64,000 nucleotides of DNA from IMG/VR virus record IMGVR_UViG_3300037524_002016, positions 18,530-82,529 of that record. One strand, written 5' to 3'. This DNA is from a virus. Numbering within the stretch: the first letter of the stretch is position 1; each line of letters starts with the position of its first letter. A model generated the notes under the pieces. The model ran no database searches, was not told where the DNA came from, and saw only the letters and a program-made list of their open reading frames with translations. Positions 34,683-63,049 of the stretch are shown here, one piece after another. The translations under genes and the position numbers were made by a program.

Positions 34683-34696
34683 GCCGTTTTCTCAAC

Positions 34697-34720
34697 AAAA
34701 AGGCGGCCCGAAGGCCGCCT
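34697..34720 (-). terminator. Rho-independent terminator after the major tail gene
   Basis: AGGCGGCC-TTCG-GGCCGCCT followed by a T-run on the minus strand. Confidence 0.85.
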
Positions 34721-37429: not shown

Positions 37430-38799
37430 GCGGCCTCCGTGGTGGCAATAGCTCGCTGACCAATCGAGATGCCGCCGATGCCGCCCACACCGGTGCCACT
37501 ACCGGCGAACTCTGCCCAGGCGCTGCTCTCCGCTGTTGCCGCACCCCCGAGCTTGATGGCCGTCGACAAATCACCCGATGCAGTGGCACGGGCCTGGGCC
37601 TGCTGGACGTCGAGAGCCGGTGTCGTCAGGTTGCCGGTGGTGGTGGCTTGACCCAGGGCGTTACCTGTCAACCGGATACCCGTGGTCAGGCTGCCGGAGC
37701 CTGTTGCGCCGGCGCGAGCCAATGCGGCTATACCGCCCACCGGGCCCAAAGATTCTGTGGCCCTGGAACCGCCAATGGAACTGGCCCCGATACTCTGAAT
37801 GCCGACGGCACTGCCCGGCGTGCTGGACGCCGGCTGTGACGTGCCGAAGGTCGTCAGATCGCCGGTGGCCTCGGCACGTCCCTGGGCATTGCCCGTCAAT
37901 CGGATGCCTGTGGTCAGGTTGCCAGAGGCCATTGCTTGGCCCAGGGCGGCACCTTCGAAACGAGCCACAGCACCTGGTGCGGTCAGGGTGCCGGAAGCCA
38001 AAGCTTGACCCAAGGCGGAACCCGTCAACCGGATGCCTGTGGTCAGGTTGCCGGTCGCCGAGGCGCGTCCGATTGCCGAGCCCGACATCGAGGCCGGTTC
38101 GCCCGGTGCGGTCAGCATGGCCGAAGCACTGGCCTCAGCAACCGCCGTACCTGTCAACTTGACACCTGTGGTCAAGACGCCGGAAGCGGTTGCCCGGACT
38201 TGGGCAGCGCCGGAGAATTGGGTGCCGATGACGGTTAGGTCACCCGAGGCGAGGGCCTGGGCAGCAGCGTTGCCGCTCAAACGAATCGCCGTAGAGAGGT
38301 TGCCCGAAGAAGTGACCTGGCTGACGGCATTGCCGCCCAACAGTGCGGAGCCGCCGCCCGTGGTGAGATCTCCAGTCGCGGTCGCCCGGCCCTCAGCAGC
38401 GCCGGTGATCTTGGCGCCCGAGGTCGTCAGGCTGGCTCCAGCGGTGGCTTCTGCCACGGCACGCGCCCGGATCTCGGCGCCGACCACGGTCATCTCGTAG
38501 ACCGACGCCACGATCACCAGCGCGCTATTGGTGCTGGCTACGGCTGACAGCGCGTCGCCTGACCCCAGATTCAGAGTACCCGGCCACGCCGAAACGGCGC
38601 GCCGGGCGCGAACCGAAAAACCCTGAGCCAGGGTCTGTGCAGATCCCCCTACCGGGGTGTAATAGAGGTCGTAGGTGACCGAAGCGTCGCTGTTGTTGGA
38701 TACAACCAGGTCATGAACGGAAGCTTCCCTGCCCGTCGGGCAGGTGTAGACCGTCTGATTGTTCGTGCTCAGGGCTTTGGGGGCGGTCTTGAGACCCAT
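37426..38799 (-). CDS. Ala/Gly/Thr-rich repeat virion protein
   Basis: N-terminal VYTCP...VSN domain followed by many ~20-aa GNLTTGIRLTGxAxGxAxA repeats. Confidence 0.7.
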   Translation of the reverse strand: MGLKTAPKALSTNNQTVYTCPTGREASVHDLVVSNNSDASVTYDLYYTPVGGSAQTLAQGFSVRARRAVSAWPGTLNLGSGDALSAVASTNSALVIVASVYEMTVVGAEIRARAVAEATAGASLTTSGAKITGAAEGRATATGDLTTGGGSALLGGNAVSQVTSSGNLSTAIRLSGNAAAQALASGDLTVIGTQFSGAAQVRATASGVLTTGVKLTGTAVAEASASAMLTAPGEPASMSGSAIGRASATGNLTTGIRLTGSALGQALASGTLTAPGAVARFEGAALGQAMASGNLTTGIRLTGNAQGRAEATGDLTTFGTSQPASSTPGSAVGIQSIGASSIGGSRATESLGPVGGIAALARAGATGSGSLTTGIRLTGNALGQATTTGNLTTPALDVQQAQARATASGDLSTAIKLGGAATAESSAWAEFAGSGTGVGGIGGISIGQRAIATTEAA

Positions 38800-38817
38800 G
38801 GTTAACCCACTTCATGA

Positions 38818-40890: not shown

Positions 40891-40895
40891 TGCCT

Positions 40896-41348
40896 TTAAC
40901 CTGCACCGGTAACTGGATCATAACTTGGCGTTGAAACACCGAGAATCGAAGAGGATGTGGGGGCCGTGACCGGCGTGTTCTTCAACAGCGCCCGGTAACT
41001 CTCAACTTTTTGAGAGGCCTGCGCGGCCACAGCCTTCATGTCGACATTGAAGCGGACCGCTTCGACCTTACCATCGGTATACCGCTGCAGCATGGCCAGC
41101 GGCATCTGGGCCAGTTGCAGCGCTCCGAACCAGGCGCAGTACCGTTGCAGGTGCCGGGTCGCGGCATCCTGGCCGGCAAACACCGTGGCGTGGGTTGGCA
41201 GCCAGGTTTCGAGATCGATGAGCAAATCCTCCCCGAACCCGGCCGCCTCGATGAGGCTGTCGGGAATGTCGGTCTCATCCAGGCCAATGCAGGCGCGTAT
41301 GGCGGCTGCCGTGGTGTACGGATGGTCGTCGTCGGGGAGATTGAGCAC
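40896..41348 (-). CDS. Putative head-tail adaptor
   Basis: YTTAAAIRACIGL..D helical protein ending in DPVTG; size and synteny. Confidence 0.55.
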   Translation of the reverse strand: MLNLPDDDHPYTTAAAIRACIGLDETDIPDSLIEAAGFGEDLLIDLETWLPTHATVFAGQDAATRHLQRYCAWFGALQLAQMPLAMLQRYTDGKVEAVRFNVDMKAVAAQASQKVESYRALLKNTPVTAPTSSSILGVSTPSYDPVTGAG

Positions 41349-41358
41349 CGCTCAAGCC

Positions 41359-41646
41359 TTACTCTTCCGGCAGGGGCGGGAACTCGTCGGCCGGCGAGCC
41401 GGGGACGATGTCGGCCAGCGCCTGGGCTTTTTCCTTGAGCAGTTCCAGGGTGGCTTCGGCGTCGGCCGGCAGTTCGATGTTCAGTAACTGGTCTTCGAGG
41501 TCGGTAATCTTGTCGAGGATTTCGGCGTGACCTTCATTGAGCTTGTTGAGGATGTCGGTCTGCTGGGCAGCCAGTTCATCGAGACGAGTCATGATGCTCT
41601 CCAGGGGCTCACCGCCCACGTAATTGTTGATAATGGTGGTACTCAT
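41359..41646 (-). CDS. Acidic coiled-coil hypothetical protein
   Basis: Heptad pattern; coupled to the upstream gene. Confidence 0.6.
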   Translation of the reverse strand: MSTTIINNYVGGEPLESIMTRLDELAAQQTDILNKLNEGHAEILDKITDLEDQLLNIELPADAEATLELLKEKAQALADIVPGSPADEFPPLPEE

Positions 41647-41963
41647 CGGTTCATCGCCCGATGGTGAAGGTTCAACTCTGTGATGGACTCGGCCAGGACC
41701 TTTAATGCCTCGGCTGTTTTCATCTGGGCTTCGGTAGAGTGGCGGTACGCAGTCAAGAATTCGGCGTTCAAGCGACTGTGTTCAAGTGCCAAGTTTTTAT
41801 ACTGCTCCACCTGTGCCGCCTGCAGGGCGACCAGTTGGGTGTTCTGGTTGGCTTGCATCCTGAACCACATCCAGGCAAACAAGAGCAGTACGCTACCCGC
41901 AATGCCGTAGTGTTCTAGGGATTCCGGGCCCCACGAGATAGCATCCATGATCGCGATGTTCAT
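41643..41963 (-). CDS. Single-TM protein with coiled coil, holin-like
   Basis: YGIAGSVLLLFAWMWF hydrophobic helix followed by a coiled coil. Confidence 0.5.
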   Translation of the reverse strand: MNIAIMDAISWGPESLEHYGIAGSVLLLFAWMWFRMQANQNTQLVALQAAQVEQYKNLALEHSRLNAEFLTAYRHSTEAQMKTAEALKVLAESITELNLHHRAMNR

Positions 41964-41966
41964 TGG

Positions 41967-42263
41967 TCATAACACCCTGCTCTTCAAGACTTCCTGAGAC
42001 CCTTCGTCAACACCCGCATGCGGCGCCGTCGCTTCCCATCGCCAGCGCCAGAGGCCTGGAGATGTGAAGATAATGTACGCATGATAACGCCCAACGGTAT
42101 CTTTTACCAGTTCGGCTGCAGTGCCAAAGACGTACGTGGTCTTGGTTCCAGAGGGGGCCCTGACAATGAGTTGGAGGCCGCCGGGGTCGGCCAGAGTGCC
42201 GCCATCGTTGTAGGTGTCTAGATCGATGCGAGCGGCCTGACCTTGATACCAAACTTCAACCAT
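41967..42263 (-). CDS. Small Ig-like virion protein
   Basis: LADP...RAPSG...GRYHA...PGLWRWRWEA. Confidence 0.6.
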   Translation of the reverse strand: MVEVWYQGQAARIDLDTYNDGGTLADPGGLQLIVRAPSGTKTTYVFGTAAELVKDTVGRYHAYIIFTSPGLWRWRWEATAPHAGVDEGSQEVLKSRVL

Positions 42264-43878
42264 GACTGACCCTCGTAACGAGTCGTCCCCGTTTGCTGAT
42301 TCGTGAAGTCAAATACCGGGCTCGACCGGTGCGGGACCACAGACGGAGCGGAATACCTGCGGCGGAGGGCGTTGTCAGGGCCGCCAGTGCCGTGGCTCTG
42401 ACTGCGGCGTGGCCAGCCAGAAGAATGGATACCGAAAGGGTGCCAGTGGCATCGGCCTGGGCCAGGGCAGCAGCCGACAACGGAATTTGGGTAGTTAAGG
42501 TGGCAGAGGCCGCGCTTTCGGCAATAGCGTTGCCTTGGAATTGACTGGCACCGACCAGGAGAGAGCCCGACGCCTGGGCCGCAGCCAGAGCGTCGCCAGA
42601 CAGCAGGATTTGAACTGTCAAAACAGCCGTTGACATGGTTTCGGCCAGGGCAGAGCCGGCGACCAGAATGGCAGTTGAGAGATCACCGGTGGCCGAGGCT
42701 TCGCCGGCGGCAGAGCCGGCGAGGCCGTCAGTCGGTACAGTCAGACTGCCGGTGGCCGCTGCTTCACCGGTTGCAGTTCCGGCCAAACGAATGTCAGTGG
42801 TCAGGTTGCCGGTGGCGGAAGCCTCGCCGATGGCGGTTCCGGCCAAGGGTATGCCAGTGGTCACATCACCGGTGGCCGCTGCTTCACCGGTTGCAGTTCC
42901 GGCCAAACGAATGTCAGTGGCCAACACCGCAGCAGCCACAGCCTGTGCCATCGCCGTCGCCGACAAGGTAATGGTTGCGGTCAGGTCGCCAGTCGCCACG
43001 GAGCCGGCCACCGCAGCGCCTTCCATGGGAATTGACGTCGTCAGCGTACCGGTGGCGGTGGTCAACGAAAGGGCCACACCATCGAGGGTTACAGATGTAG
43101 CTATACTGCCAGAGGCACTAGCCTGAGCCAGGGCAGTGCCCGACAACTGAGCCTGGGCAGGCGAATCGGCAGATCCCAGCAAAAAGATGACCTTGTTTTG
43201 TCGGTCGAACATCGCCCACGGGTTAGTCCCAAGTTCTTCCAATAACTCTGGGGACAATTTTGGAAATTCCGCTAAAAGATAAACCCTAATTGGCGCAGTA
43301 AAACCAAGGCCAGAATTGGTTTTCTTTGCCAGGATATCCCAAGAAGAGCCCGCCAAGGCATTAAACGTTATAGCTATACGTCTAATGCCTGCCCAGTTAT
43401 TGCTGGAGCCTATTGTGGTGGATGGTATTCCATCGAACCACGTAGGAGTTTGAATAGCAGCAGAGCCAGCACGTTCAACACGGGTACGGTTTTTATCTCC
43501 GGCAGCAGCGTAGGAGTTTCCTAGCTGCACAGACACGTAATTACTATCATTATCGTGCCGGCTGTTTAAAAGGAAAGGAATAGCAGACGCGGTTTCGCAG
43601 TTTATTCTGGATTCAGCAACGGCAATGATAGAGGCTGAACTCGGCGGAGAGTTACTCAGAGCAATACATCTGTCAGTGCCGACAACACCTCCAAAAATAT
43701 TTGTTTCAACGCCAAAAGCTACGCCTTCTTGGCCTCGGTAGACACCGACATTCGTCCCAATACTGCTGATTAGCCTGTTATCCTGCCAAGCCGGGACAAT
43801 AAGTCTATTAGGTCGGCCGAATTTTTCCAGCACCCTTTGCGGGTACGGTGGCTGGGTACGCCATGTCCGGTTGATCAC
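42256..43878 (-). CDS. Virion protein: low-GC N-terminal lectin-like domain plus 20-aa Ala/Thr/Gly repeats
   Basis: L..NPWAMF motif closes the N-domain; TDIRLAGTATGEAAATG repeats; exact DNA repeat at 42749-42800 and 42869-42920. Confidence 0.65.
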   Translation of the reverse strand: MINRTWRTQPPYPQRVLEKFGRPNRLIVPAWQDNRLISSIGTNVGVYRGQEGVAFGVETNIFGGVVGTDRCIALSNSPPSSASIIAVAESRINCETASAIPFLLNSRHDNDSNYVSVQLGNSYAAAGDKNRTRVERAGSAAIQTPTWFDGIPSTTIGSSNNWAGIRRIAITFNALAGSSWDILAKKTNSGLGFTAPIRVYLLAEFPKLSPELLEELGTNPWAMFDRQNKVIFLLGSADSPAQAQLSGTALAQASASGSIATSVTLDGVALSLTTATGTLTTSIPMEGAAVAGSVATGDLTATITLSATAMAQAVAAAVLATDIRLAGTATGEAAATGDVTTGIPLAGTAIGEASATGNLTTDIRLAGTATGEAAATGSLTVPTDGLAGSAAGEASATGDLSTAILVAGSALAETMSTAVLTVQILLSGDALAAAQASGSLLVGASQFQGNAIAESAASATLTTQIPLSAAALAQADATGTLSVSILLAGHAAVRATALAALTTPSAAGIPLRLWSRTGRARYLTSRISKRGRLVTRVSHG

Positions 43879-43881
43879 AGG

Positions 43882-44334
43882 TTACGCCCAGGAGTAGGTG
43901 AACGGAGTAACTTTTACGAAAATATTACTACCGGTTCCGGTTATAGCTACTCCAGCTTTATTTTCTATGTAGAAAAAAGCCTTCTCAATACCTTCCAAGG
44001 AAATTATAGTACTCACCCTTTGCTCTTCATCTGTATCGTAAATAACGAAGGCTCCCATAAACCTGGCAGACTCAATGTCGGTTCCTGTGGGAGCCGACGT
44101 TTCATCTTGGGTCCCATCGACATCCTGCAGTACTGCATATAGGTTTACTACAGAATTATTAGTTGGGATGCCCCCGAAAGTAGCAGGAGCATGCAGTACA
44201 GCGCGCGCAAAAGGATACAACAACGTGCTGTTATCGAATAACGTAGTTCCACCTGCAACTGCGTTATTAGCCAGATCGGCGGTCAAATCAATGACAGTGA
44301 CCGGCGAATCAAACTTCATCTTAAGGTCAGGCAC
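43882..44334 (-). CDS. Hypothetical structural protein
   Basis: GTG start with AGGTG RBS; beta-rich; low GC. Confidence 0.6.
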   Translation of the reverse strand: MPDLKMKFDSPVTVIDLTADLANNAVAGGTTLFDNSTLLYPFARAVLHAPATFGGIPTNNSVVNLYAVLQDVDGTQDETSAPTGTDIESARFMGAFVIYDTDEEQRVSTIISLEGIEKAFFYIENKAGVAITGTGSNIFVKVTPFTYSWA

Positions 44335-44342
44335 TGTGTCAC

Positions 44343-44843
44343 CTAAATTTGGTTGGCCTGGAATGCAGTTGACACATCGTCGTAGGTAACCGTATCGACA
44401 AAACCAAGGCGTAATCCTGTTACAGTAAGGGTTGTTACCGTTGTGCCACCCAGAATTAACTGCACATTTGTTGCTTTCCGCAGGCACGATTGTAGCAACG
44501 GCACAGCGTCAGTGGACCCCCAAACATCTGTAATAGCCTTGCGATATTTGCTTTTACGCATATCCAAAGGGCTGAAAGCCAACATCAACCGCCAAGCATC
44601 TCGCTTACCGGCAGACAGAGTGTCAAACTTTGTGATATCTGTGGCCTCAAACAAAGAGGTCGAAGCCATGGCGTAATCCCAAACATACTCAGTAGTCAGA
44701 CTGTTCAGCCAATCAGCCATACGGATGTTGTCACAATCGTTGCCGTTCGAATAAATAAGACTTTGAACATAGGGATCGGCAGAGGCCCTAAGCGCTGTAA
44801 CCAAAGTAGTCTGCTGACTCGGAGTGAGAACCGTATAAACCAC
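44343..44843 (-). CDS. Hypothetical protein
   Basis: AAGGAG RBS, GTG start; low GC. Confidence 0.65.
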   Translation of the reverse strand: MVYTVLTPSQQTTLVTALRASADPYVQSLIYSNGNDCDNIRMADWLNSLTTEYVWDYAMASTSLFEATDITKFDTLSAGKRDAWRLMLAFSPLDMRKSKYRKAITDVWGSTDAVPLLQSCLRKATNVQLILGGTTVTTLTVTGLRLGFVDTVTYDDVSTAFQANQI

Positions 44844-44894
44844 GTTGATCTCCTTAATATGTTGTTGTTGTATAAGTGTATCCGGACGTAATAC

Positions 44895-45011
44895 TTAAAT
44901 CACCGTGTCGCCATCAATGACTGCCACATGGGACCGCTTCGAAAAACCGGTCAGCATCCGGATCAGGATAGAGCCCGGCGCAGTGCTACGAGATAAAATC
45001 AGGCGAAGCAT
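44895..45011 (-). pseudogene. Truncated remnant resembling the N-terminus of a permuted papain-like (YiiX/YebB-type) amidase
   Basis: Own translation: MLRLILSRSTAPGSILIRMLTGFSKRSHVAVIDGDTVI*; GAGGT RBS; stops where IEA would be expected. Confidence 0.55.
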
Positions 45012-45012
45012 G

Positions 45013-46062
45013 TCAGACCTCGTACTCGAAGCCGGCATTCAGCACGGTAATGTAGTTCGTGGCGGTGGCGGCTTCGGCATAAATATTCCCATATGGTTCT
45101 ACAGGTAAAGCCGAAATCCCGCTGTACATGGTGGTATTTGCCGCCGGAGTATATAAGCTCACCAACGCATTAAACACAGAATTAGTGTCTACTACCGATT
45201 GGTTACTTACAGCGCCTTTGGCGACCCCTGCCGATGTGGTGTCCCCTACTCCGATATTTAAAAAGGCTCGAGTCGTTGAATAGGGAAAGTGCGCAAACGT
45301 ATAGACGTTGCCGGCAGTTGACCCAGTAACAGTCAGCATGGTGTACGGTTCTCTATACATAAACCGCCGCGTATTTGACTTGTTTTCTGAGATACAGTAC
45401 CCCAACATTAGTGCTGTGCTGGCAGCCGCAGTGCGAACACAACCAATAAAACGATAAGCATTACCTAAGTCGTATGTGGTCCAACCTAAGCCGTCAAAGC
45501 TCTCTTGAGCAGTGTAATCACCGTTATACCTTTGCCAACCATAAGCCAGGTTGCCCCCGGAAATGTAAGCGTAGATAAAAATCAACGAATCATTGGCCAG
45601 CGTGGACCCGGACAAAGCCGTGGTGCCGTCAAGTGTAACGACAGTATTACCTGTCTTACTGTAGCGTTTACCCTGAATATAAATGTAACCACCACCCACG
45701 TTAACAGAAGTATCTGATGCCCGGCTGACCTGAAAGCCACTGATCGTTCCGAAATCAGCCGCATACCCCACGCGTTGTGCCGTCTGCGTCAGATAAACCT
45801 TCGCCGCACTCGTGAAGCTCACCCGGGACCCGGAACTGGATTCCTCCAACGTGCCTCGGGTCACCGTGTTGGTGCCGTTCGTGAAAGTGCAATCCCGGCA
45901 AATCTCCCAGTTCGTACCTTCCTCAATCAAGATGTCGACCACCTTGTTGGCGCCAAACGTCGTGAAGGCCTGATGACCCGACAACGCGGCGCCCAGGGTA
46001 ATGGTGCCCGTCCCCGGCGTGCCGGAGACGTTGCACCCAATGCGGTTGCGGTACTCAGGCAT
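45013..46062 (-). CDS. Fibre-like virion protein with variable low-GC C-terminus
   Basis: N-terminal GTPGTGTITLGAA..GHQAF...WEI...TVTR...SSSG..VSF..A.VYLT module; GC drops after about residue 100. Confidence 0.65.
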   Translation of the reverse strand: MPEYRNRIGCNVSGTPGTGTITLGAALSGHQAFTTFGANKVVDILIEEGTNWEICRDCTFTNGTNTVTRGTLEESSSGSRVSFTSAAKVYLTQTAQRVGYAADFGTISGFQVSRASDTSVNVGGGYIYIQGKRYSKTGNTVVTLDGTTALSGSTLANDSLIFIYAYISGGNLAYGWQRYNGDYTAQESFDGLGWTTYDLGNAYRFIGCVRTAAASTALMLGYCISENKSNTRRFMYREPYTMLTVTGSTAGNVYTFAHFPYSTTRAFLNIGVGDTTSAGVAKGAVSNQSVVDTNSVFNALVSLYTPAANTTMYSGISALPVEPYGNIYAEAATATNYITVLNAGFEYEV

Positions 46063-46074
46063 CGCGAGGCTCTC

Positions 46075-46596
46075 TTAGTTGTTGTCGATCTGGAAGGTGA
46101 ACGCGTCCACGGCAATGGACGGCGCGGCGTCGCCGGCGTTCACGGTCTTCGGCGAGATCGAGGTATAGACCCAAAGATTGCCAGAGGTGGCATCTTTGAG
46201 GCCGATGCAGTTGATCACGCCCCACGCAACGCCACCGGAGCCCGCTGCCGTCGGTGCGCCGTACTGAATGATGCTGGCATTCGACGTGGTGCCGTTATTG
46301 CCCGAGGAAGCCGAACCGGTGGTGCCTTGGGTGCCTTTCCAGTTCGTCATGTTGGCTGTCACCGCGACCGGCGCGTAGTTGGTATTGACCGTCGACACTT
46401 CCGTACCAGCCGAACTGTCGGTCGGACAGGTCGTGTACAAAGCCACGTGCCAGGTCGCCGGGATCCCAGAGGCCTGACCACGCATTATGGCGTCGATGAG
46501 TTTGTTTTCGGCGAAATCGGTCAGCGCAACAGCCGAGGCGTTGCTGGCAAACAGGCTCGCTGCGACCATCAAGAGGGGGATCAAAAACTTTTTCAT
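46075..46596 (-). CDS. Virion-type protein with a predicted Sec signal peptide
   Basis: MKKFLIPLLMVAASLFASNASA then ALTDFAENKLIDAI.RG...VALYT..PTD...GTEVS...WG.I...GL.DA.SGNL. Confidence 0.65.
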   Translation of the reverse strand: MKKFLIPLLMVAASLFASNASAVALTDFAENKLIDAIMRGQASGIPATWHVALYTTCPTDSSAGTEVSTVNTNYAPVAVTANMTNWKGTQGTTGSASSGNNGTTSNASIIQYGAPTAAGSGGVAWGVINCIGLKDATSGNLWVYTSISPKTVNAGDAAPSIAVDAFTFQIDNN

Positions 46597-46614
46597 GTTC
46601 AACTCCTAAGGTTG

Positions 46615-46640
46615 AAAAAATGGCCGCCCGAAGGCGGCCA
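46615..46640 (-). terminator. Rho-independent terminator
   Basis: TGGCCGCC-TTCG-GGCGGCCA plus T6 on the minus strand. Confidence 0.85.
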
Positions 46641-46668
46641 AACGGAGGCCGCAAGGGAACGGGAAACG

Positions 46669-47322
46669 TTACTTCTTGGCCGAAGCCGTGGTGTCCACGG
46701 TGTCGGGTAGTTCAGGGGGCGGCGTGGTCACGCTGGGTTCGTTCATCGTCGCCCAATCCAGGTCCGCATCCGGAACCAGCACACCCAGTTCTTCGAATGC
46801 GGGGGCGACCAAACCCGTGTTGACCGCGTCGGCACCGGTGCCCATCCAGCGGAGGATGCAGTCATCGACCGTGGTGAAGCATTCCATGATGTCCACGTAG
46901 TCTTCATTGGCGATGTAGGACTGGGTCTTGGCCGAGTCCACCCGCAGCATCACGCGACAGGTGTTGAAGATTTCCGACAGCACCCGCTTGGTCTTCACGT
47001 TGCGGATGCGCTGGATCTCCTTCTGGTCCGGCAGCAGGATGGAGAAACCGTACTCATAGACGCCGTTCGGAAGGTCGTTGTGCGCCATGGAGAACTCCAG
47101 TTCTTCCTTGGCGATCTTCCACTGGGCAATGATTTTGCGGATGTCCCGGGGCCGGGCCTTGGACGCCGTGTTGTTCGAGTCACACTCGAGCAGGAACAGC
47201 ATCAGGCGGGTCAGTTGCTCCAGCACCTGGTGCAGCCGGTAGTTCTCGAGCTTGTGTTCGACGACGTCAATCTTCTGGCCGCCTACGACCAGGGGATCGA
47301 CCTTGTTCAGTTCGGTGATCAT
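46669..47322 (-). CDS. Hypothetical helical protein with strong codon bias
   Basis: GAGGT RBS before ATG at 47322; own terminator. Confidence 0.7.
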   Translation of the reverse strand: MITELNKVDPLVVGGQKIDVVEHKLENYRLHQVLEQLTRLMLFLLECDSNNTASKARPRDIRKIIAQWKIAKEELEFSMAHNDLPNGVYEYGFSILLPDQKEIQRIRNVKTKRVLSEIFNTCRVMLRVDSAKTQSYIANEDYVDIMECFTTVDDCILRWMGTGADAVNTGLVAPAFEELGVLVPDADLDWATMNEPSVTTPPPELPDTVDTTASAKK

Positions 47323-47341
47323 GAGAGACCTCACTTTCTTT

Positions 47342-47424
47342 GAGGCGGCCCTGAACCGCCTCGACTTGGTGCCGCCCCAGGGGAGTTCAGGGCTCCCCGG
47401 CCAGAGGAGGCGGCGTAGCTGGCC
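47342..47424 (-). ncRNA. Candidate structured RNA: pseudoknot plus two hairpins with complementary 7-nt loops
   Basis: Stems GGCCAG/CUGGCC, GCCGCCUC/GGGGCGGC, GGGGAG/CUCCCC, GAGGCGG/CCGCCUC; loops CCCUGAA and UUCAGGG. Confidence 0.6.
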
Positions 47425-47428
47425 TTGC

Positions 47429-47656
47429 TTACTCTGCGATCAGCACGCCAGCTGCAACCTGGCAGTCGATCCAGTTGTCGGAGACAATTGGCTCCGTCGG
47501 GTAGAGCGTTTCGAAGAAGATGTCCCGGTAGGGATGCTTGCGCCGGTGGCCGACCGAGGTGTAACGCTTCAACTCGGGCCCCGCCGCGGCGGGCTTGGGA
47601 GCCCGCTGCTGGCGTTCCTTGAGCACTTCGGCCTGGACCTTGGAAAGTTCCGTCAT
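47429..47656 (-). CDS. Small protein downstream of the capsid gene
   Basis: AAGGAG RBS; synteny. Confidence 0.7.
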   Translation of the reverse strand: MTELSKVQAEVLKERQQRAPKPAAAGPELKRYTSVGHRRKHPYRDIFFETLYPTEPIVSDNWIDCQVAAGVLIAE

Positions 47657-47666
47657 GGAAATCTCC

Positions 47667-48860
47667 TTACAGGGTCAGGGTCAGCATCTTCCAGGCGTCC
47701 GGATACAGCTTGCGCATGATCCAGCCCCAATCCAGTCGCAGGCTGGTGGCCTTCCGCATTACGTATTCCTCGATCGCCGAGTAGCTCGCGCTGACGTTGG
47801 TCACCCGCTGCACGCCGTACCGGGAATCCAGGCAAGCCATGGTGTTGGCGCCCAGGACGCTGGTATCCAGCGGCAGGAAGCCGACATCGGACATGCCCAA
47901 CTGATCGATCAGCAACTCCGCATTAATGCGGGGCGAGGTGTTGTTGTCGGTCGAAGTCGTTGGCTTGCCAGAGCGGTTCTGAATCGCCAGCGCGCAGTCG
48001 ATGTCGCCGGCCATCCAGTCGATGGAGAGCTTCTTGTAGTCGGCCCACAGGAACTTCACCCAGGCTTTCTGGGTGATGACACCGGCCGCGTTGATCGTGC
48101 TGTCGAAGGTGACAGCCTTCTGGCTGACCGAAACCGCAGCCTCGCCCAGATCGGTGTCGCCATTGATCAGGGTCGCGAACGCCCGGCTGGCCTGGGCAAT
48201 CCGGCGGGCCCGGGTGTTGGCTTCCAGGGTCTTGGCGATCACATCCAGCGTGGTGTTCTGCTGGGCTTCATCCGAAAAGGTCAAGCCCACCGCATGAGTA
48301 GGAATCCGGAACTGCCGGGAACCCGTGGTGAACGAGATCATGATCGGCGGTTCGGTCAGCTGGCCGACCGGCTGCGAGGAATCGACCTCGGCTTCCTTGA
48401 TGTTGATGATCGGCTGATCCACCCAGGCCTGGGTGACGCTCAGGTCCTGGGCCACCAAGCTGTCGAGACCCATGAGGAACTTGTCGTTGCTCTCACGAAG
48501 TTCCGCCTCGACCAGGGCCATCAGCACTTCGGGATAGAGCAGGCGACCTGATACGGTCTGCCGGTCCGCACCGTCCGGACGAATGATGGCGCCGGCCTTG
48601 ATGTCGAGCCCGCCTTCCAGCACCTGGGCCAGCGTCGGCGGTCGAATTCCCAGTTTGGCATCGCCACGCACGAAGAGACCGGCCGATTGCACGAGCTGGT
48701 CGAAAGTCGTCATAGATTGGTGGGACGTCGGGAAGTGCCGATTCACGTACTGGCGGAGAGACAGGCCCTCCTTGTTGGCCGCTTTGTATGCGGTCACGTC
48801 CAGCTTCAGTTCAGTCTGCTTGCCGCTGGCGTCGACAAAGCTGTATGCAAAATTGTCCAC
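47667..48860 (-). CDS. Major capsid protein
   Basis: 397 aa, strong codon bias, follows the protease and decoration genes; HK97-like size and C-terminal pattern. Confidence 0.8.
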   Translation of the reverse strand: MDNFAYSFVDASGKQTELKLDVTAYKAANKEGLSLRQYVNRHFPTSHQSMTTFDQLVQSAGLFVRGDAKLGIRPPTLAQVLEGGLDIKAGAIIRPDGADRQTVSGRLLYPEVLMALVEAELRESNDKFLMGLDSLVAQDLSVTQAWVDQPIINIKEAEVDSSQPVGQLTEPPIMISFTTGSRQFRIPTHAVGLTFSDEAQQNTTLDVIAKTLEANTRARRIAQASRAFATLINGDTDLGEAAVSVSQKAVTFDSTINAAGVITQKAWVKFLWADYKKLSIDWMAGDIDCALAIQNRSGKPTTSTDNNTSPRINAELLIDQLGMSDVGFLPLDTSVLGANTMACLDSRYGVQRVTNVSASYSAIEEYVMRKATSLRLDWGWIMRKLYPDAWKMLTLTL

Positions 48861-48883
48861 TGTTAGTTCTCCAGGGCTAGCGA

Positions 48884-49330
48884 TTAAATGCGTTCCAGCA
48901 GCACTTTCGTGCCTGCCGTGCCGTCACCGTAACGGCGAATGACCCGCCACTTGTACGTGGACGGGGTCCCGGTCTTGACCTTGGGGGCTCCTGCAGTACC
49001 GAGGGCCACCTGGGTGTCGGCCACAACCAGGTCGAGCACGGCCATGGCCGTGGCACCTTGGTTGGCGCCGACCTCGGCAATGAAGCGCTTGTTGCGCTGC
49101 ACGGAGCCGAAGCTGAAACCGGAATTGACCGTGAAGTCGGCGATCGTGGCCACGAAGCCTTCGATCTCGTCACCACCGGTCGCGAGCACGTAGTTCTGGG
49201 CGTTGCCCATCTTCACGCACTTGCCGATGTCCTTCATGTTGAACTTGCCACTCGAATTGGCGCCAAGAGCCGCGTCAACGACATCCGCCAAAGGGGCGTT
49301 GACCAGCTCGGAAAAGGCAAAGGTAGTCAT
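48884..49330 (-). CDS. Head decoration/cement protein
   Basis: 148-aa Gly/Ala/Thr-rich beta protein between the protease and capsid genes. Confidence 0.7.
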   Translation of the reverse strand: MTTFAFSELVNAPLADVVDAALGANSSGKFNMKDIGKCVKMGNAQNYVLATGGDEIEGFVATIADFTVNSGFSFGSVQRNKRFIAEVGANQGATAMAVLDLVVADTQVALGTAGAPKVKTGTPSTYKWRVIRRYGDGTAGTKVLLERI

Positions 49331-49347: not shown

Positions 49348-51060
49348 TTAATCAATAATGCAAAGCTTGGCCAGCGCAGCGTCGAGCACCTTGGCGGAGG
49401 CTTCCACCAAGGCGTCTTCGTCCGCACCTTCTTCCACTGCCGCCGTCTTGGCGCCGCCCGGGAACCGTTTCGCAAAGTCCGGCTGCAGAGCGCCGTACTG
49501 TACGAGCAACAGTTCCACCGGCAGCGCATCGAGATTCAGCGCGGGGCCGCCCATGGCGACCTGCATGCGGTTGATCTCGGTCCGCAACACCGGCAGGGTC
49601 TGGGCCATCTGGCTGCTCAACTTGGCGACATCCCCGGCAAGCGAGGCGTTGACGGCATTGGCCTGGGCCAGTTGCGCGGTCAGTTCCTCGATCTGAGCTT
49701 GCAATGGCGCAGCCGTAGCCTTGGCTACGGCTGCGCTATCAACAGGTTCGGGTCCAGATTCAGGGAGAGAAGCCAGCTTGATCGTGGGACTGATCACCAG
49801 GGGCGCTGCGGCCTTGGCTTCGTCCGAGCGGTCGTCGACCACGGAGACGCGGATCAGGCCGGGGCCCTCGCCGAAGACGTCCACTTTGTCGGTGCGGGTG
49901 TCCAAGACCAGCAACGTCAGTTGTTCCTGACCAGATCCTGCGGTGGCCGACCGAAGGTCGGTCACCGCCTGATTGGGTTCAGAAACAGGTGCCGCAACGG
50001 TCTCTGCAGCGCTCTCTGCGTCCGCTGCCGGACTCGATTCGGTGATCTTCATGGGTACAACAGCCATACGTTGTGTGTTACCGCGAATCCTACCATATCC
50101 ACTTTGTGGGTCAACATTTCGCCTTGACAAAATATGGCCAACCAGACCCGAGAAGGTGCCCACCTGGTTTGCGAGTCCAAGCTGTACCGCCTTTTCACCA
50201 GTGAACACACTGCCGTCCGCAATCTTGTCCAAGATATGTGACGTGGACTTGCCGATGTTCCGGGAGAGCCCTTCCACGAAGAACAGGCGCGATTCCTCTA
50301 AACGGGCCTGGATCACATCGGCTGCTTTATCGCTCAGCTTCTCGTAGGGGTTTCCCAGGGCCTTGTTCTCTCCGGCGCGAAAGACCCTGATCGTCACGCC
50401 ATGATCAGCCATCATCTGCGTTAGCTCGGAGTGAATCGCGATCACACCAACTGACCCGTTCTCGGCCATCCTGGTCGTCCACACCTCATCCGCGGAGGTG
50501 CCCAACCAACAGGCCGCGCTGGTCATCCTGGACCCATTGAAGGAGTACACAGGGAGTACAGTGTCAGTGAACTGCGCAATAAAATGGGCGCAATCGTCGC
50601 AGCCCATCACCGACCCACCGGGCGAGGCCCAGTTCAGGATCACTTCCTTGGCGCCCAGGTCCTTGGCAGTCAGCATGGCCTCGGCGATCTCGTCGTAGCT
50701 CACCATCCCGTAAAACCGATTGAACGGATCGTTCTCGGAGGTCAGTTCGCCGGCGATATCGATCACACCGATACCGTTGCCCATGGCCAGGAGGTGGTGT
50801 CCACCCTCTTGTGCTCTTGTTTGGCGAAAAGGCTCTGGCTGATGGCCATCAGCCAGAGCGTTTATCCGCAAAGGAGGACGCACAAGTTCCTGAGCCAACA
50901 GCTTTTCCCGCTCGGTCGGCGTCAGATTCATGATTCGCTCACGCTTCTTCGCGTGCCGATGCTGAGAAGCTTCGTCACCGAACCACAGTTCAAAACCATG
51001 GCTGGCCTGGGTCCGGCTTGCCGGACCCAGGCTATTCGAGTTTTCAATTTGGTCGCTCAT
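49348..51060 (-). CDS. S49 (SppA-like) prohead protease with C-terminal scaffold region
   Basis: ASPGGSV, MTSAACWLGTSADEV, GSVGVI, AGENKALGNPYE; C-terminal low-complexity and coiled-coil region. Confidence 0.9.
   Translation of the reverse strand: MSDQIENSNSLGPASRTQASHGFELWFGDEASQHRHAKKRERIMNLTPTEREKLLAQELVRPPLRINALADGHQPEPFRQTRAQEGGHHLLAMGNGIGVIDIAGELTSENDPFNRFYGMVSYDEIAEAMLTAKDLGAKEVILNWASPGGSVMGCDDCAHFIAQFTDTVLPVYSFNGSRMTSAACWLGTSADEVWTTRMAENGSVGVIAIHSELTQMMADHGVTIRVFRAGENKALGNPYEKLSDKAADVIQARLEESRLFFVEGLSRNIGKSTSHILDKIADGSVFTGEKAVQLGLANQVGTFSGLVGHILSRRNVDPQSGYGRIRGNTQRMAVVPMKITESSPAADAESAAETVAAPVSEPNQAVTDLRSATAGSGQEQLTLLVLDTRTDKVDVFGEGPGLIRVSVVDDRSDEAKAAAPLVISPTIKLASLPESGPEPVDSAAVAKATAAPLQAQIEELTAQLAQANAVNASLAGDVAKLSSQMAQTLPVLRTEINRMQVAMGGPALNLDALPVELLLVQYGALQPDFAKRFPGGAKTAAVEEGADEDALVEASAKVLDAALAKLCIID
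50087..50114 (-). promoter_or_regulatory. Internal promoter in the protease gene with CCAC-N3-GTGG operator
   Basis: TTGACC-16 nt-TAGGAT with extended -10 TG; closely matches the promoter at 2793. Confidence 0.65.
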
Positions 51061-52562: not shown

Positions 52563-54413
52563 TTAGCCAAGGTAGGACCGCCGGGGTCGGTCCGCCAGCC
52601 CCATGGGCTCGTCATCGCGGGGGCTGGGTATCCGCACCGACGTGATGGGCGGCAGGATGAGGCCCGCGGTGGCCGAGACGGAGCCCTCCTCCAAGATCGA
52701 GAACCCGATGCGGAGGTAGTTGAGGGCATGGGCAAAGTGGGTGTCCCCGGTGTCGACCCAGGTGCCCTTGGCGGAAGCGTCTTCGCGGACCTTCTTGATG
52801 TTCTGCAGGTGCCGCTTCACCGTCGGCATCTCCGGGCACTCGCAGAAGCGAATCCGGCCGCTGTTCACGTCCTTGGAGAGGTCGTCAAAGGCCGCCGTCC
52901 GGTTAGCGTGAACCAGGCCTTTCTCGAGGTCGATCCGGTGCCCGATCAACTGCTTGCGCTCGGACCCTTCCCGCTCGTAATAGCAACCGAAGGCTGAGCC
53001 TTCCGGCAGGTTGTTGGTCACATGCTTGGCGGTGGTGAAGTCCGGGGCCGCGTCCACAACTGCCATTACAGAGTGGAAGTCTTGGGCTACGCCCAAGACT
53101 TCCATTCCTAGAATAGGGTCATGGAGGTCGCGGGTGTCGATCCGGGCAATGTAAATGACGTCGATGAAGGCCCCATTCCGGGTTCCGACCACGATCCAGG
53201 ACACCTTGCCCACGTCACACCCCACCACCGTGGGCCGGCCCGACCAATGGGCCCGGTCCTGCAGTCGCAGGACCGTGCTTCTGTCGACCACGTCGATGAG
53301 GAAGGACGATTCGGCGTCCTCATAAGTCTCCCCGACCTTGTGGTTCACCCACTGGTACTTGTACTTATAATCGCCAAGCTGTCTCAGCGTCCTGGCGGGG
53401 GTGTTAATCTTCGGCAGATCGAACGAACTGATCTTGAAGCCCTTGTGAGTCCTGGACGGGTACTCATGGACCCAGGCCCGTGCTTCCGGATCTGCCAGGT
53501 TCTGACGAGTGATGGGTTGGCCGCAGCCCGGGTGGGGGCATTTGAGCCAGGCATCGTTGACCCTGATCCTATTGTTGGTATGGCTGGGTCCGGCTTCGCC
53601 GGACCCAGCAAAATCAGAAATAGAGTCTGATTCAAGGTCGTGTTGCTCGAGATGATGACGTTCAAAGAACCTCAAGCTGTCATCGAACCCCGGCACCACC
53701 ACGTCCTCGAAGAACTCCGGGGTCACCCAGCGGCTGCAAGCATAATGTTTGACGGCGTAACGCCCCTTAGACGACCCGCTGTAGAACTTGCTGATTCCGA
53801 AGCCCTGCACCGTGGGCGTGGAGAACCGCACGGTGTGATGCATGCCCTCTTCCTGGTGGCCCAAGCGGGACTGGTACGTGGTCAGCACGTCCGGATCGGA
53901 GAAGTCCACCTCGTCATGAAACAAGGCCGTGGCCGGGATCGAGATCGGGTCCATGCCGGCGGAGGCACCAGTGATGTGTAGGAACGAAGATCCCAACTTC
54001 TTCAAGGTGTTGTTGTCCACGTTGGGGTCCAACAGGCCCTTGATCGTCGGGGACCCGGCAATAGCGGGATCGATACGGGTGGTGCAGAACTTGTTCGCAA
54101 ACGCCGACGTCTGCAGGGTGTAAATAATCTGCGTCGGCTGTTTCACAATCAGATAGGCGGCGGCCATCCGAATCGCTAATTCCGAGACCCCGGCCTGTGA
54201 AATCTTCATGACCGAGGCTTGCTCCTCGGCAATGGCGGCGGCAATGTCCACCTGGAATTCGTGGTCCTTGAACGACCAAGGCCGATGCGGATCCGCGGGA
54301 TGAGACGTGAAATCCTCAATCCAGCGGGGAATGAAAGACAGGTCGCGGCCTCCGGAGACACCGAGCCGGATGCGGAGGAGGGTTTGGTCGATGCGATCAG
54401 ATCGAGATGGCAC
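52563..54413 (-). CDS. terL: Terminase large subunit (lambda gpA-like)
   Basis: HEFQ, MKISQAGVSE, FHDEVD, FSTPT..GFGI, VGCDVG nuclease motif, DTHFAHA. Confidence 0.88.
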   Translation of the reverse strand: MPSRSDRIDQTLLRIRLGVSGGRDLSFIPRWIEDFTSHPADPHRPWSFKDHEFQVDIAAAIAEEQASVMKISQAGVSELAIRMAAAYLIVKQPTQIIYTLQTSAFANKFCTTRIDPAIAGSPTIKGLLDPNVDNNTLKKLGSSFLHITGASAGMDPISIPATALFHDEVDFSDPDVLTTYQSRLGHQEEGMHHTVRFSTPTVQGFGISKFYSGSSKGRYAVKHYACSRWVTPEFFEDVVVPGFDDSLRFFERHHLEQHDLESDSISDFAGSGEAGPSHTNNRIRVNDAWLKCPHPGCGQPITRQNLADPEARAWVHEYPSRTHKGFKISSFDLPKINTPARTLRQLGDYKYKYQWVNHKVGETYEDAESSFLIDVVDRSTVLRLQDRAHWSGRPTVVGCDVGKVSWIVVGTRNGAFIDVIYIARIDTRDLHDPILGMEVLGVAQDFHSVMAVVDAAPDFTTAKHVTNNLPEGSAFGCYYEREGSERKQLIGHRIDLEKGLVHANRTAAFDDLSKDVNSGRIRFCECPEMPTVKRHLQNIKKVREDASAKGTWVDTGDTHFAHALNYLRIGFSILEEGSVSATAGLILPPITSVRIPSPRDDEPMGLADRPRRSYLG

Positions 54414-55181: not shown

Positions 55182-55248
55182 TTTTCTGCTCTCTGTTGGG
55201 TGGGGTTTAAGTCAGGCGTGACCTCCGCTTCGCGGAGGTCACGCTCGG

Positions 55249-56590: not shown

Positions 56591-56671
56591 GAGATCAAAT
56601 TCCGCTGTTGACAGCGGAATTTGAAGGTTAGATCGCCCTCAGCGATCTGCAAAAGCGGCCGGCGGGCCGCA

Positions 56672-58995: not shown

Positions 58996-59046
58996 GTCAG
59001 ACCCTAGTAACGCCCCACGACCAGGGCGTTACTTTCTCTTCACTAG

Positions 59047-62978: not shown

Positions 62979-63049
62979 CCTCGCATAAGGTTGGCTCACC
63001 GGCGGTGAGCCAACTGTCTGACCTGCCTGTGGCAGGCCAGACGCTTTTA

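What the first reader, a model, noticed from the sequence alone, without database searches (positions are those of the whole stretch)
47342..47424. Compact pseudoknot and kissing-loop RNA behind the capsid genes
Seen on the minus (coding) strand within 83 nt: P1 GGCCAG/CUGGCC, whose loop GCCGCCUC pairs downstream with GGGGCGGC (the one non-canonical pair is G-U only on this strand); hairpin GGGGAG-CCCUGAA-CUCCCC; hairpin GAGGCGG-UUCAGGG-CCGCCUC. The two 7-nt loops are perfectly complementary. GCCGCCUC can alternatively pair with the 5' arm of the last hairpin, suggesting a switch. The element fills the gap between a stop codon (47429) and the RBS of 46669-47322, and has no U-tract on this strand. 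Established: complementary loops drive ring formation in phi29 pRNA and tertiary folding in riboswitches. Inference: a novel cis-regulatory or self-assembling RNA in the head operon.
Basis: partly seen in the sequence, partly recalled or inferred. Interest (0 to 1): 0.75.

Follow-up and report, generated by a model that had tools for sequence, protein, structure and literature searches.

The report
Orphan hairpin cluster after capsid genes
The complementary stems and loops are really in the sequence, but this is most likely one phage's private version of the ordinary RNA hairpin found after capsid genes; nothing yet shows a special folded or self-assembling RNA.

Summary
The density of inverted repeats and the 7/7 loop match exceed chance for this window. 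Folding energy is no better than for shuffled sequence (z -0.64), and no Rfam family matches.

The element is an orphan. It is single-copy in its 82.5-kb phage record. A covariance model found it in none of 125 related loci or 5 related phage records. Covariation therefore cannot be tested.

The element lies where a ~6-kb accessory block, starting with a mosaic 217-aa gene, was inserted after the capsid genes. In 52 of 65 head-module relatives a simple hairpin follows the capsid gene, and none has complementary loops. Hairpin H3 closely resembles one of this phage's own terminators but lacks the U-tract. Contigs from RNA libraries read across the element.

Best reading: a leaky, tail-less intercistronic stem-loop cluster that acts as an mRNA barrier or attenuator. 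A true kissing-loop switch remains possible (~15%).

The scan has noted kissing-loop leaders after capsid genes on other DNA (marine T4-like phages). They are unrelated by sequence.

The parts
47667..48860 (-). Major head protein gene (397 aa), upstream of the element
   Evidence: phrog_3922 major head protein, E 4.1e-47. 104 homologues. The pair with the 148-aa gene upstream is kept in 79 of 80 related loci.
47429..47656 (-). 75-aa ORF (orf75), 10 nt after the capsid gene; its stop codon TAA is at 47431-47429
   Evidence: GC3 0.80, like neighbouring genes. Weak homologues follow the capsid gene in 4 of 80 relatives. There the ORF lies after the post-capsid hairpin and runs directly into the next gene.
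47342..47424 (-). The 83-nt hairpin cluster (the finding)
47399..47424 (-). P1: GGCCAG / CUGGCC with a 14-nt loop that holds GCCGCCUC (47414-47407)
   Evidence: I10. Probability 0.01 in nested folding; it is possible only as a pseudoknot with the outer helix.
47371..47414 (-). Outer 8-bp helix GCCGCCUC / GGGGCGGC (one G-U) enclosing H2. It forms a long interrupted hairpin in the minimum-energy fold.
   Evidence: pair probabilities 0.57-0.98.
47380..47398 (-). H2: GGGGAG-CCCUGAA-CUCCCC
   Evidence: I9; present in the MFE structure.
47342..47362 (-). H3: GAGGCGG-UUCAGGG-CCGCCUC. A terminator-type hairpin without a U-tract.
   Evidence: I2; probability 0.98. It aligns with the canonical terminator at 34701-34720 but has an A-rich tail where that one has a U-rich tail. 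The same 21-mer precedes a T-run on the opposite strand in one bacterial genome (L052).
47323..47341 (-). A-rich single-stranded spacer (AAAGAAAG) and the Shine-Dalgarno GAGG (47332-47329) of the 217-aa gene
   Evidence: The SD is free or held only in a weak 5-bp local hairpin in 3 of 4 folding contexts. It is hidden by the H3 3' arm in 1 of 4.
46669..47322 (-). 217-aa gene (p217): a mosaic accessory gene of unknown function
   Evidence: No Pfam, PHROG, NCBIfam or PADLOC family. 112 homologues at 48-95% identity. In 49 of 49 loci no other window gene is a neighbour. Neighbours elsewhere are tail fibre, DNA polymerase and endolysin genes. Absent from 80 of 80 head-module relatives.
46615..46640 (-). 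Canonical intrinsic terminator after p217 (8-bp GC stem, UUCG loop, U6)
   Evidence: Contigs of three RNA libraries stop at 46695-46704 while a DNA run continues (weak hint).

Best explanation
The element is a lineage-specific cluster of stable RNA stem-loops in the late (head) polycistronic mRNA. It is a long interrupted hairpin (the GCCGCCUC/GGGGCGGC helix around H2) followed by the terminator-type hairpin H3. It sits at the junction where an accessory block was inserted behind the capsid genes. It is this phage's counterpart of the simple hairpin that follows the capsid gene in most relatives.

Because it lacks a U-tract it does not terminate efficiently, and RNA polymerase reads through into the 217-aa gene. 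Its most likely job is to act as a barrier and attenuator. After cleavage in the A-rich single-stranded spacer just downstream, the hairpins would protect the 3' end of the abundant capsid message from exonucleases. The accessory genes behind it would then be expressed at a lower level.

Shown: the pairings, the position, the orphan status, the positional analogy with relatives, the likeness of H3 to the phage's own terminator, and contigs from RNA libraries that bridge the element.

Inferred: the barrier/attenuator role, the cleavage site, and the view that the loop complementarity is a by-product.
For: 1. In nested thermodynamics H2 (0.96-0.99), H3 (0.98) and the outer helix (0.57-0.98) form with high probability.
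2. In head-module relatives, 52 of 65 distinct loci have a perfect hairpin of 6 bp or more within 130 nt after the capsid-gene stop. 19 of these have a T-run and 8 have two or more hairpins. The median gap is 67 nt in the 75 loci that could be measured. Here the first real gap after the capsid gene is this 106-nt one.
3. H3 aligns with the phage's canonical terminator at 34701-34720 (GAGGCGGCC-UUCG-GGCCGCCU plus a U-run). The outer helix uses the same GCCGCC/GGCGGC motif as the terminator at 46621-46640. The element has AAAGAAAG where those have U-runs.
4. Junction: in relatives, orf75-like genes run straight into a ~157-aa gene whose window homologue is at 40896-41348. The stretch 47428-41349 is therefore an insert that begins with this element. 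p217 is absent from 80 of 80 head-module relatives and shares no neighbours with 49 of 49 of its own relatives' loci.
5. RNA-library contigs bridge the element in 2 of 3 RNA runs laid (X4 46702-47675; X5 46982-47539). Contigs of all 3 RNA runs stop at 46695-46704, near the canonical terminator after p217, while the DNA run goes on.
6. [quoted passage not shown]
Against: - No transcript ends were mapped. All runs laid were contigs, which cannot show ends or levels. No silent stretch was laid, so DNA carried into the RNA libraries is not excluded.
- In X13 the RNA contigs leave 47324-47566 uncovered, with one contig ending at 47323. The cause is unexplained.
- The 7-nt loops differ from the UUCG tetraloops of this phage's real terminators.
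- The 7/7 loop match and the four-fold GCCGCCUC/complement motif are rarer than chance in this window. A plain barrier does not need them.
- A divergent strain or strains in run X18 show no change in 47210-47455 while the flanks differ by about 2.5-9%. This fits constraint on more than simple stems. However, 113 nt of coding sequence are equally invariant, so a recent recombination tract explains it as well.
- The folding energy is not better than shuffles.
Confidence: 0.5

Rival explanations
1. A real tertiary-structured regulatory RNA. The two loops kiss, or alternatively form the 9-bp helix GCCCUGAAC/GUUCAGGGC. P1 makes a pseudoknot, and the fold switches the ribosome-binding site of the 217-aa gene on or off, perhaps coupled to ribosomes terminating at the orf75 stop codon 5 nt upstream of P1.
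For: - The 7/7 loop match occurred in 0 of 5000 element shuffles, 0 of 40 whole-window shuffles and 0 of 131 natural loci.
- By my count, 69 of the 83 nt lie in mutually complementary segments.
- In one of four folding contexts (161 nt) the MFE is the 9-bp alternative helix together with a GCCUCA/UGAGGU hairpin that hides the SD (I1 probability 0.6, anti-SD 0.5-0.6).
- No substitution in the element in the variant strain(s) of run X18.
- Earlier notes of this scan describe conserved kissing-loop leaders after capsid genes in marine T4-like phages. These are leads only and I did not check them.
Against: - No relative carries the element, so there is no covariation.
- In 3 of 4 contexts the alternative state has probability 0.02 or less.
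- z-scores are -0.64 and -0.74.
- By a geometric estimate of mine (inference, not computed), an 8-nt linker cannot span a coaxial H2-kiss-H3 stack while the outer helix is formed. The full 'compact' model is therefore strained.
- The invariance in X18 extends equally into coding sequence.
Confidence: 0.15
2. No selected function. The 106 nt are a recombination-junction leftover: decayed terminator hairpins (U-tract lost) carried along when the accessory block or the p217 cassette was inserted. The loop match is coincidence.
For: - Orphan status.
- Exact position at an insertion junction.
- H3 resembles a terminator of the same genome with its tail changed.
- The genome is generally over-rich in hairpins: 260 against 111 +/- 10 expected, which raises the chance of coincidences.
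- The p217 homologues' upstream gaps range from -11 to 587 nt in the 38 loci measured and are unrelated in sequence.
Against: - Phage genomes are compact, and the other junctions measured in this head-gene stretch (49347-46063) are 10-23 nt.
- The element is unchanged in a strain or strains that differ by about 2.5-9% in the flanks.
- Inverted-repeat density has P about 0.001.
Confidence: 0.25
3. A DNA-level site: the inverted and direct repeats are bound by a protein (operator, recombination or packaging site) and do not act as RNA.
For: - Watson-Crick inverted repeats are strand-symmetric.
- The motif GCCGCCTC is over-represented in the window: 11 against 4.8 expected, reached by 1 of 100 shuffles.
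Against: - The G-U pair in the outer helix works only on the coding strand.
- No DNA-binding or recombinase gene was found among the five adjacent genes scanned.
- The 9-nt arms lie 28 nt apart, which by my recall is far for a dimeric operator.
- The other GCCGCCTC sites are scattered inside genes or are terminators.
Confidence: 0.05
4. A phi29 pRNA-like, self-assembling packaging RNA that multimerises through its complementary loops.
For: Only the existence of two complementary loops.
Against: - No match to any Rfam family in 46000-49000 at E up to 10, apart from three chance-level hits elsewhere in that stretch.
- No promoter-like site in the gap.
- RNA contigs run through it as part of the mRNA.
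- The phage has a large terminase (phrog_675).
- The two loops are in one molecule and match each other fully, which favours intramolecular pairing.
Confidence: 0.02

Closest known systems
Leaky intrinsic terminators or stem-loops that follow the major capsid gene in tailed phages (T7 T-phi after gene 10, from recall; weak read-through terminators of Pseudomonas phage LUZ7, passages read in PMC9163698)
   Same: It occupies the first gap after the capsid genes. It has GC-rich stable hairpins and is read through into downstream genes. Relatives with the same capsid family have a hairpin at that place in 52 of 65 loci.
   Different: There is no U-tract on either strand. There are two to three interlocked hairpins where relatives have one. 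The loops are 7 nt, not tetraloops, and complement each other. It is displaced by one small gene (orf75) from the capsid gene.
Tail-less ('I-shaped') terminator hairpins and intercistronic mRNA-stabiliser hairpins such as REP in malE-malF or the puf operon hairpins
   Same: A stable hairpin without a U-run inside a polycistronic message, between a highly expressed upstream gene and downstream genes needed in smaller amounts.
   Different: It is single-copy, whereas REP elements are dispersed repeats. No end-mapping or decay data exist for this site.
Kissing-loop leader RNAs after the capsid gene of uncultured marine T4-like phages
   Same: The position just behind the capsid genes and in front of the next gene. 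Two hairpins with complementary loops. A possible anti-Shine-Dalgarno stretch.
   Different: Those are reported as conserved in many contigs with co-varying loops. This one has no relatives at all. No sequence likeness was found. It is in a different phage type (GC-rich, lambda-like head module, tape measure).
phi29 prohead RNA (pRNA)
   Same: Complementary loops that could pair.
   Different: From recall, pRNA is a separate small transcript with intermolecular 4-nt loop pairing in phages with protein-primed replication and a gp16 packaging ATPase. Here the element is part of an mRNA, has no Rfam hit, and the phage has a classical terminase.
Purine riboswitch aptamer (loop-loop L2-L3 tertiary contact)
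   Same: Two adjacent hairpins whose loops could interact in cis, upstream of a ribosome-binding site.
   Different: No Rfam match. There is no three-way junction with a conserved core and no conservation. A full 7-bp loop helix is unlike the short L2-L3 contact (from recall).

Membership tests
Intrinsic (Rho-independent) terminator | GC-rich hairpin | tested here: met
   H3 has a 7-bp stem of which 6 pairs are G-C. The outer helix plus H2 gives 14 bp.
Intrinsic (Rho-independent) terminator | U-tract directly 3' of the hairpin | tested here: not met
   H3 is followed by AAAGAAAG on the minus strand and by GACTTGG on the plus strand. The terminator scan lists no site in the gap but does list the one at 46640-46621.
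Intrinsic (Rho-independent) terminator | Transcripts end there | tested here: inconclusive
   RNA-library contigs bridge the element in 2 of 3 runs. In the third, cover stops at 47323. Contigs cannot show ends.
phi29-type pRNA | Match to the catalogued family | tested here: not met
   No such hit in the Rfam scan of 46000-49000 at E up to 10.
phi29-type pRNA | Separate small transcript with its own promoter | tested here: not met
   No promoter-like site in the gap. RNA contigs run through from the capsid gene end into p217.
phi29-type pRNA | Complementary loops able to pair between molecules | tested here: inconclusive
   The loops are complementary, but within one molecule. Multimerisation cannot be tested here.
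H-type pseudoknot | Two helices with crossing topology | tested here: met
   P1 and the GCCGCCUC/GGGGCGGC helix cross. This is complementarity only.
H-type pseudoknot | Support from covariation or energetics | tested here: inconclusive
   There are no relatives to count pairs on. The nested fold already reaches -42.9 kcal/mol without P1, which has probability 0.01. No pseudoknot-capable folding program was on hand.
Conserved kissing-loop leader RNA (as in earlier notes on marine T4-like phages) | Loop-loop complementarity kept across relatives | tested here: not met
   Loops complementary over 5 nt or more in 0 of 65 post-capsid gaps; a loop match of 6 nt or more in 0 of 131 distinct loci. The model R1 finds no homologue.
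Conserved kissing-loop leader RNA (as in earlier notes on marine T4-like phages) | Built-in complement of the downstream ribosome-binding site that can hide it | tested here: inconclusive
   GCCUCA/UGAGGU pairing appears in 1 of 4 folding contexts (0.5-0.6). In the other three it is 0.05 or less.
Dispersed palindromic element (REP/MITE-like) | Many copies in the genome or in other genomes | tested here: not met
   One copy in the 82.5-kb record. The H2 19-mer has 0 matches in viral contigs. The 7 exact matches of the H3 21-mer in bacterial genomes share no flanks in 7 of 7 cases.
Moron-type cassette (gene with its own promoter and terminator inserted between conserved phage genes) | Inserted relative to relatives, with a terminator behind the gene | tested here: met
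   p217 is absent from 80 of 80 head-module relatives. A canonical terminator lies at 46640-46615.
Moron-type cassette (gene with its own promoter and terminator inserted between conserved phage genes) | Own promoter in front of the gene | tested here: not met
   No sigma-70-like site in 47323-47428.

The most novel reading that the evidence does not exclude
The element is a private, recently evolved three-state RNA switch. When H2 and H3 stand, their loops kiss and the ribosome-binding site of the 217-aa accessory gene is free. When the 9-bp alternative helix GCCCUGAAC/GUUCAGGGC forms, the freed CCUC arm of H3 hides that site. The P1 pseudoknot, 5 nt behind the orf75 stop codon, lets terminating ribosomes choose between the states. 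It would be a second, independent invention of the 'kissing-loop leader behind the capsid gene' that this scan noted in marine T4-like phages.
Probability: 0.13. Interest if true: 0.6.

Novelty: new member of a known kind. Interest (0 to 1): 0.27.

Why it matters
If the plain reading holds, this is one more example of how phages set the ratio of capsid to accessory proteins with read-through hairpins. It also shows such a hairpin cluster sitting exactly at a mosaic junction. That is useful for annotation but not surprising.

If the loop pairing is functional, it would mean that loop-loop leader RNAs behind capsid genes arise repeatedly in unrelated phages. That would make them a general design for post-capsid gene control, testable with a small reporter set.

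The wider oddity of this genome (a more than two-fold excess of perfect hairpins, many of them long palindromes inside genes) may deserve more attention than this single site.

Tried and rejected
- Rfam scan of 46000-49000 at E up to 10: only three chance-level hits, none in the element.
- Promoter/terminator scan: nothing in the gap.
- blastn of 3.4 kb against 50,697 phage records: one 96-nt match of 75% identity in a Pseudomonas phage, not at the element.
- The H2 19-mer in viral contigs: 0 matches.
- The H3 21-mer in genome contigs: 7 matches, all with unrelated flanks (coding sequence or, once, a terminator on the other strand). The mobile-element idea is rejected.
- The motifs GCCGCCTC and GCCCTGAAC elsewhere in the window (12430/12491, 62252-62281) are not similar elements.
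- The idea that H3 is an inverted duplicate of H2, which would give complementary loops for free: compared by eye, likeness does not go beyond the 9-mer, so it is not supported.
- The GC content of the gap (0.68) is not an outlier among this window's gaps (0.48-0.69), so it is no argument for structure.
- Function of p217: no family in four libraries. The AF2 model has mean pLDDT 75 and is mostly helical. No fold match at E <= 0.001 in PDB or BFVD. Atlas hits are below 0.9.
- Literature: 'downstream of the major' + capsid + terminator + phage + read-through gave 0 papers. 'kissing loop' + bacteriophage + intergenic + mRNA + capsid gave 2 papers, seen as listing only, neither on such an element. 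I therefore found no printed description of a kissing-loop element in a phage head operon in those two searches.
- Of PMC9163698 and PMC11512511 I read only the passages returned. I did not open their supplements. The terminator tables there could show how common tail-less phage terminators are.
- Depth differences between RNA contigs (about 7 against about 10-12 across the capsid gene boundary) are not used as evidence, because the tool states that contig depth cannot rank genes.
- The uncovered stretch 47324-47566 in X13 is likewise not used as evidence.
Full report
WHAT IS THERE

- P1: GGCCAG/CUGGCC.
- GCCGCCUC in the P1 loop, facing GGGGCGGC downstream. The single G-U pair exists only on this strand.
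- H2: GGGGAG-CCCUGAA-CUCCCC.
- H3: GAGGCGG-UUCAGGG-CCGCCUC.

The two 7-nt loops are perfect complements. With the closing pairs they form a 9-nt inverted repeat. GCCGCCUC occurs twice, and its complement occurs twice (once imperfectly). By my count 69 of the 83 nt lie in mutually complementary segments. H3 is followed by AAAGAAAG and then the Shine-Dalgarno GAGG, so there is no U-tract on either strand.

IS IT MORE THAN CHANCE?

- The 83 nt carry 7 perfect inverted repeats of 6 nt or more, against a mean of 1.58 in 5000 dinucleotide shuffles (P = 0.001). A loop match of 7 was seen in 0 of 5000 shuffles.
- A pair of perfect hairpins within 120 nt whose loops match over 6 nt or more occurs once in the real window (here). 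It occurs 0 times in 40 shuffles of the whole window and 0 times in 722,356 bases of 131 other natural loci.
- Against this, the folding energy is ordinary for the composition: z -0.64 on the minus strand, -0.31 on the plus strand, and -0.74 for a 161-nt context.
- The window as a whole is unusually hairpin-rich: 260 perfect hairpins against 111 +/- 10, and 65 hairpin clusters against 9.6. This raises the odds of coincidences.
- My rough estimate is a 0.1-0.4% chance of such a loop match in a window like this. That is notable for one window but expected somewhere in a very large scan.

WHAT FOLDS

In nested thermodynamics H2 (0.96-0.99), H3 (0.98) and the GCCGCCUC/GGGGCGGC helix (0.57-0.98) form. 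P1 has probability 0.01, because it can coexist with that helix only as a pseudoknot.

The simplest fold is therefore a long interrupted hairpin followed by H3. A loop-loop contact is compatible with it on paper (duplex -9.6 kcal/mol). The alternative 9-bp helix, together with a GCCUCA/UGAGGU hairpin that hides the ribosome-binding site, is the minimum-energy fold in one of four contexts tried. In the other three it has probability 0.02 or less. No pseudoknot-capable program was available. By my own geometric estimate, forming the outer helix and a coaxial kiss at once is strained by the 8-nt linker. That is inference.

CONTEXT

The window is the last 64 kb of a 98%-complete, 82.5-kb virus record. 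On the minus strand lie, in order:
- a large terminase gene;
- an S49 protease gene, a 148-aa gene and the major head protein gene (phrog_3922);
- 10 nt later, orf75;
- the element;
- the 217-aa gene (p217);
- a canonical terminator (8-bp stem, UUCG loop, U6) at 46640-46615;
- a Gp80-like fibre gene.

Further on are a tape-measure gene and a central tail fibre gene. The other junctions in this head-gene stretch are 10-23 nt.

RELATIVES OF THE DOWNSTREAM GENE

p217 has 112 homologues at 48-95% identity and belongs to no family.
- In 49 of 49 fetched loci it is the only gene shared with the window.
- Its neighbours elsewhere are tail-fibre, DNA polymerase or endolysin genes.
- Its upstream gaps range from -11 to 587 nt in the 38 of 41 loci where an upstream ORF could be defined. 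None resembles the element.

RELATIVES OF THE UPSTREAM GENES

- In 80 loci with the same capsid family, the 148-aa/capsid pair is kept in 79, p217 in 0, and an orf75-like gene in 4.
- In 52 of 65 distinct evaluable loci there is a perfect hairpin of 6 bp or more within 130 nt after the capsid stop. 19 have a clear T-run, 8 have two or more hairpins, and 0 have loops complementary over 5 nt or more. Fifteen of the 80 loci were dropped as exact duplicates or as having less than 130 nt after the stop.
- The median gap is 67 nt in the 75 loci that could be measured.
- Where an orf75-like gene exists, it lies behind that hairpin and runs straight into a ~157-aa gene. The window homologue of that gene is at 40896-41348.
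- So 47428-41349 is an insert relative to these phages, and the element is its first feature.

A covariance model of the element finds only itself. It was a single-sequence model built with the nested structure of 21 pairs. It scored 130.8 bits on itself, 22.3 bits on its own antisense, and 13 bits on a site at 9452-9523. It found nothing in 217,903 + 521,172 bases of related loci at E up to 10, and nothing in 5 near-complete related records at E up to 1.

LIKENESS TO THE PHAGE'S OWN TERMINATORS

H3 aligns with the canonical terminator at 34701-34720 (GAGGCGGCC-UUCG-GGCCGCCU followed by UUUUGUUG). H3 has two stem bases fewer, one loop base more, and AAAGAAAG as its tail. The terminator after p217 uses the same GCCGCC/GGCGGC stem motif. 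The H3 21-mer also occurs in 7 unrelated bacterial genomes with unrelated flanks, once as a hairpin with a T-run on the other strand. H3 is thus a terminator-type hairpin without its tail.

ENVIRONMENTAL READS

24 public runs hold the stretch, and 19 of them are recorded as RNA. I laid four, all kept as contigs.
- RNA-library contigs bridge the element in X4 (46702-47675) and X5 (46982-47539).
- In X13 cover stops at 47323 and resumes at 47567.
- In all three RNA runs contigs stop at 46695-46704, just upstream of the canonical terminator, while the DNA run X18 continues. The tool rates this only as a weak hint.
- X18 carries at least one divergent strain (branching contigs suggest two). Flanking contigs differ from the window by 13 of 389, 3-4 of 139 and 34 of 364 letters. 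The contig covering 47141-47455 differs by 2 of 315 letters, and neither difference is in 47210-47455.
- That could mean constraint. However, 113 coding bases are equally unchanged, so a shared recent recombination tract explains it as well.
- No silent stretch was laid as a control for DNA carry-over.

MOST LIKELY MECHANISM (confidence 0.5)

The element is a tail-less, read-through stem-loop cluster in the late mRNA. It is the positional counterpart of the post-capsid hairpin of relatives and was built from terminator-type hairpins at an insertion junction. It would protect the 3' end of the capsid message after cleavage in the A-rich spacer, and it would lower the expression of the accessory block.

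Passages of PMC9163698 report that most termination sites of phage LUZ7 are leaky, and that weak terminators tune phage gene expression.

The structure, position and read-through are shown or hinted by the calls above. Cleavage, protection and attenuation are inferred.

RIVALS

- A genuine kissing-loop/pseudoknot switch of p217 translation (0.15).
- A functionless junction scar (0.25).
- A DNA-level protein site (0.05).
- A pRNA-like assembling RNA (0.02).

EARLIER NOTES OF THIS SCAN

- Other readers saw the same genome's palindromes inside genes and the accessory block.
- A follow-up note reports an rrn-type antitermination signal in the early region. If real, it would fit read-through of tail-less hairpins.
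- Several follow-ups report conserved kissing-loop leaders after capsid genes in marine T4-like phages.

These notes raised my odds for the switch reading slightly. I did not test them, and they show no sequence likeness to this element.

VERDICT

The element is most likely an ordinary kind of feature in an unusual, private form.

Noticed in passing
window 1573-1598, 4571-4601, 5319-5346, 7099-7121, 7508-7530, 13849-13877, 14028-14052, 14713-14738, 15718-15744, 18810-18833, 49707-49736, 50832-50859, 51005-51032, 53074-53104, 53583-53609 (inside ORFs); 55216-55244, 56595-56624, 59006-59033, 62990-63014 (between ORFs): There are many long perfect palindromes (10-14-bp stems, mostly 3-4-nt loops), and most lie inside long ORFs. 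Overall the window has 260 perfect hairpins against 111 +/- 10 in shuffles. The palindromes at 51005 and 53583 share CTGGGTCCGGC. The phage also encodes an SbcC-like palindrome nuclease subunit (14131-16293).
   Followed up: partly
window 46669-47322 (-): The 217-aa protein is widespread (112 homologues, 48-95% identity, invariant LECDSNNT and RNVKxK motifs). It has no family and no fold match. It sits next to quite different genes in different phages: tail fibre, DNA polymerase, endolysin. It behaves as a mobile accessory gene of unknown function.
   Followed up: partly
window 41349-47428 and 37430-40895: Relative to phages with the same capsid family, about 6 kb are inserted between orf75 and the 150-aa gene at 40896-41348. 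Another ~3.5 kb lie between that gene and the next conserved ones at 36929-37429 and 36435-36887.
   Followed up: partly
window 46615-46640 and 34693-34720 (-): There are two near-twin canonical terminators (GC stem on the GCCGCC/GGCGGC motif, UUCG loop, U-run), one after p217 and one after the 273-aa gene at 34749-35570. Contigs of three RNA libraries stop at 46695-46704 while a DNA run continues.
   Followed up: partly
window 47635-47656 and 47296-47322 (-): orf75 and p217 begin alike (MTELSKV... and MITELNKV...), with similar DNA over about 20 nt. This may be chance, or a trace of recombination at gene starts.
   Followed up: no
window 47141-47455, run X18: In a freshwater DNA run one contig identical to the window apart from 2 letters is flanked on both sides by alternative contigs (two versions each at 46648-46780 and 47426-47564). 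Two or more strains seem to share this 315-nt piece while differing around it.
   Followed up: no
L058-L137, first 130 nt after the capsid-gene stop: A hairpin directly after the capsid gene is a near-constant feature of this capsid family (52 of 65 distinct loci). Several high-GC members have no T-run, for example GGGGGGTCGCAAGACCCCTC followed by AACCC in L085, L087 and L090.
   Followed up: partly
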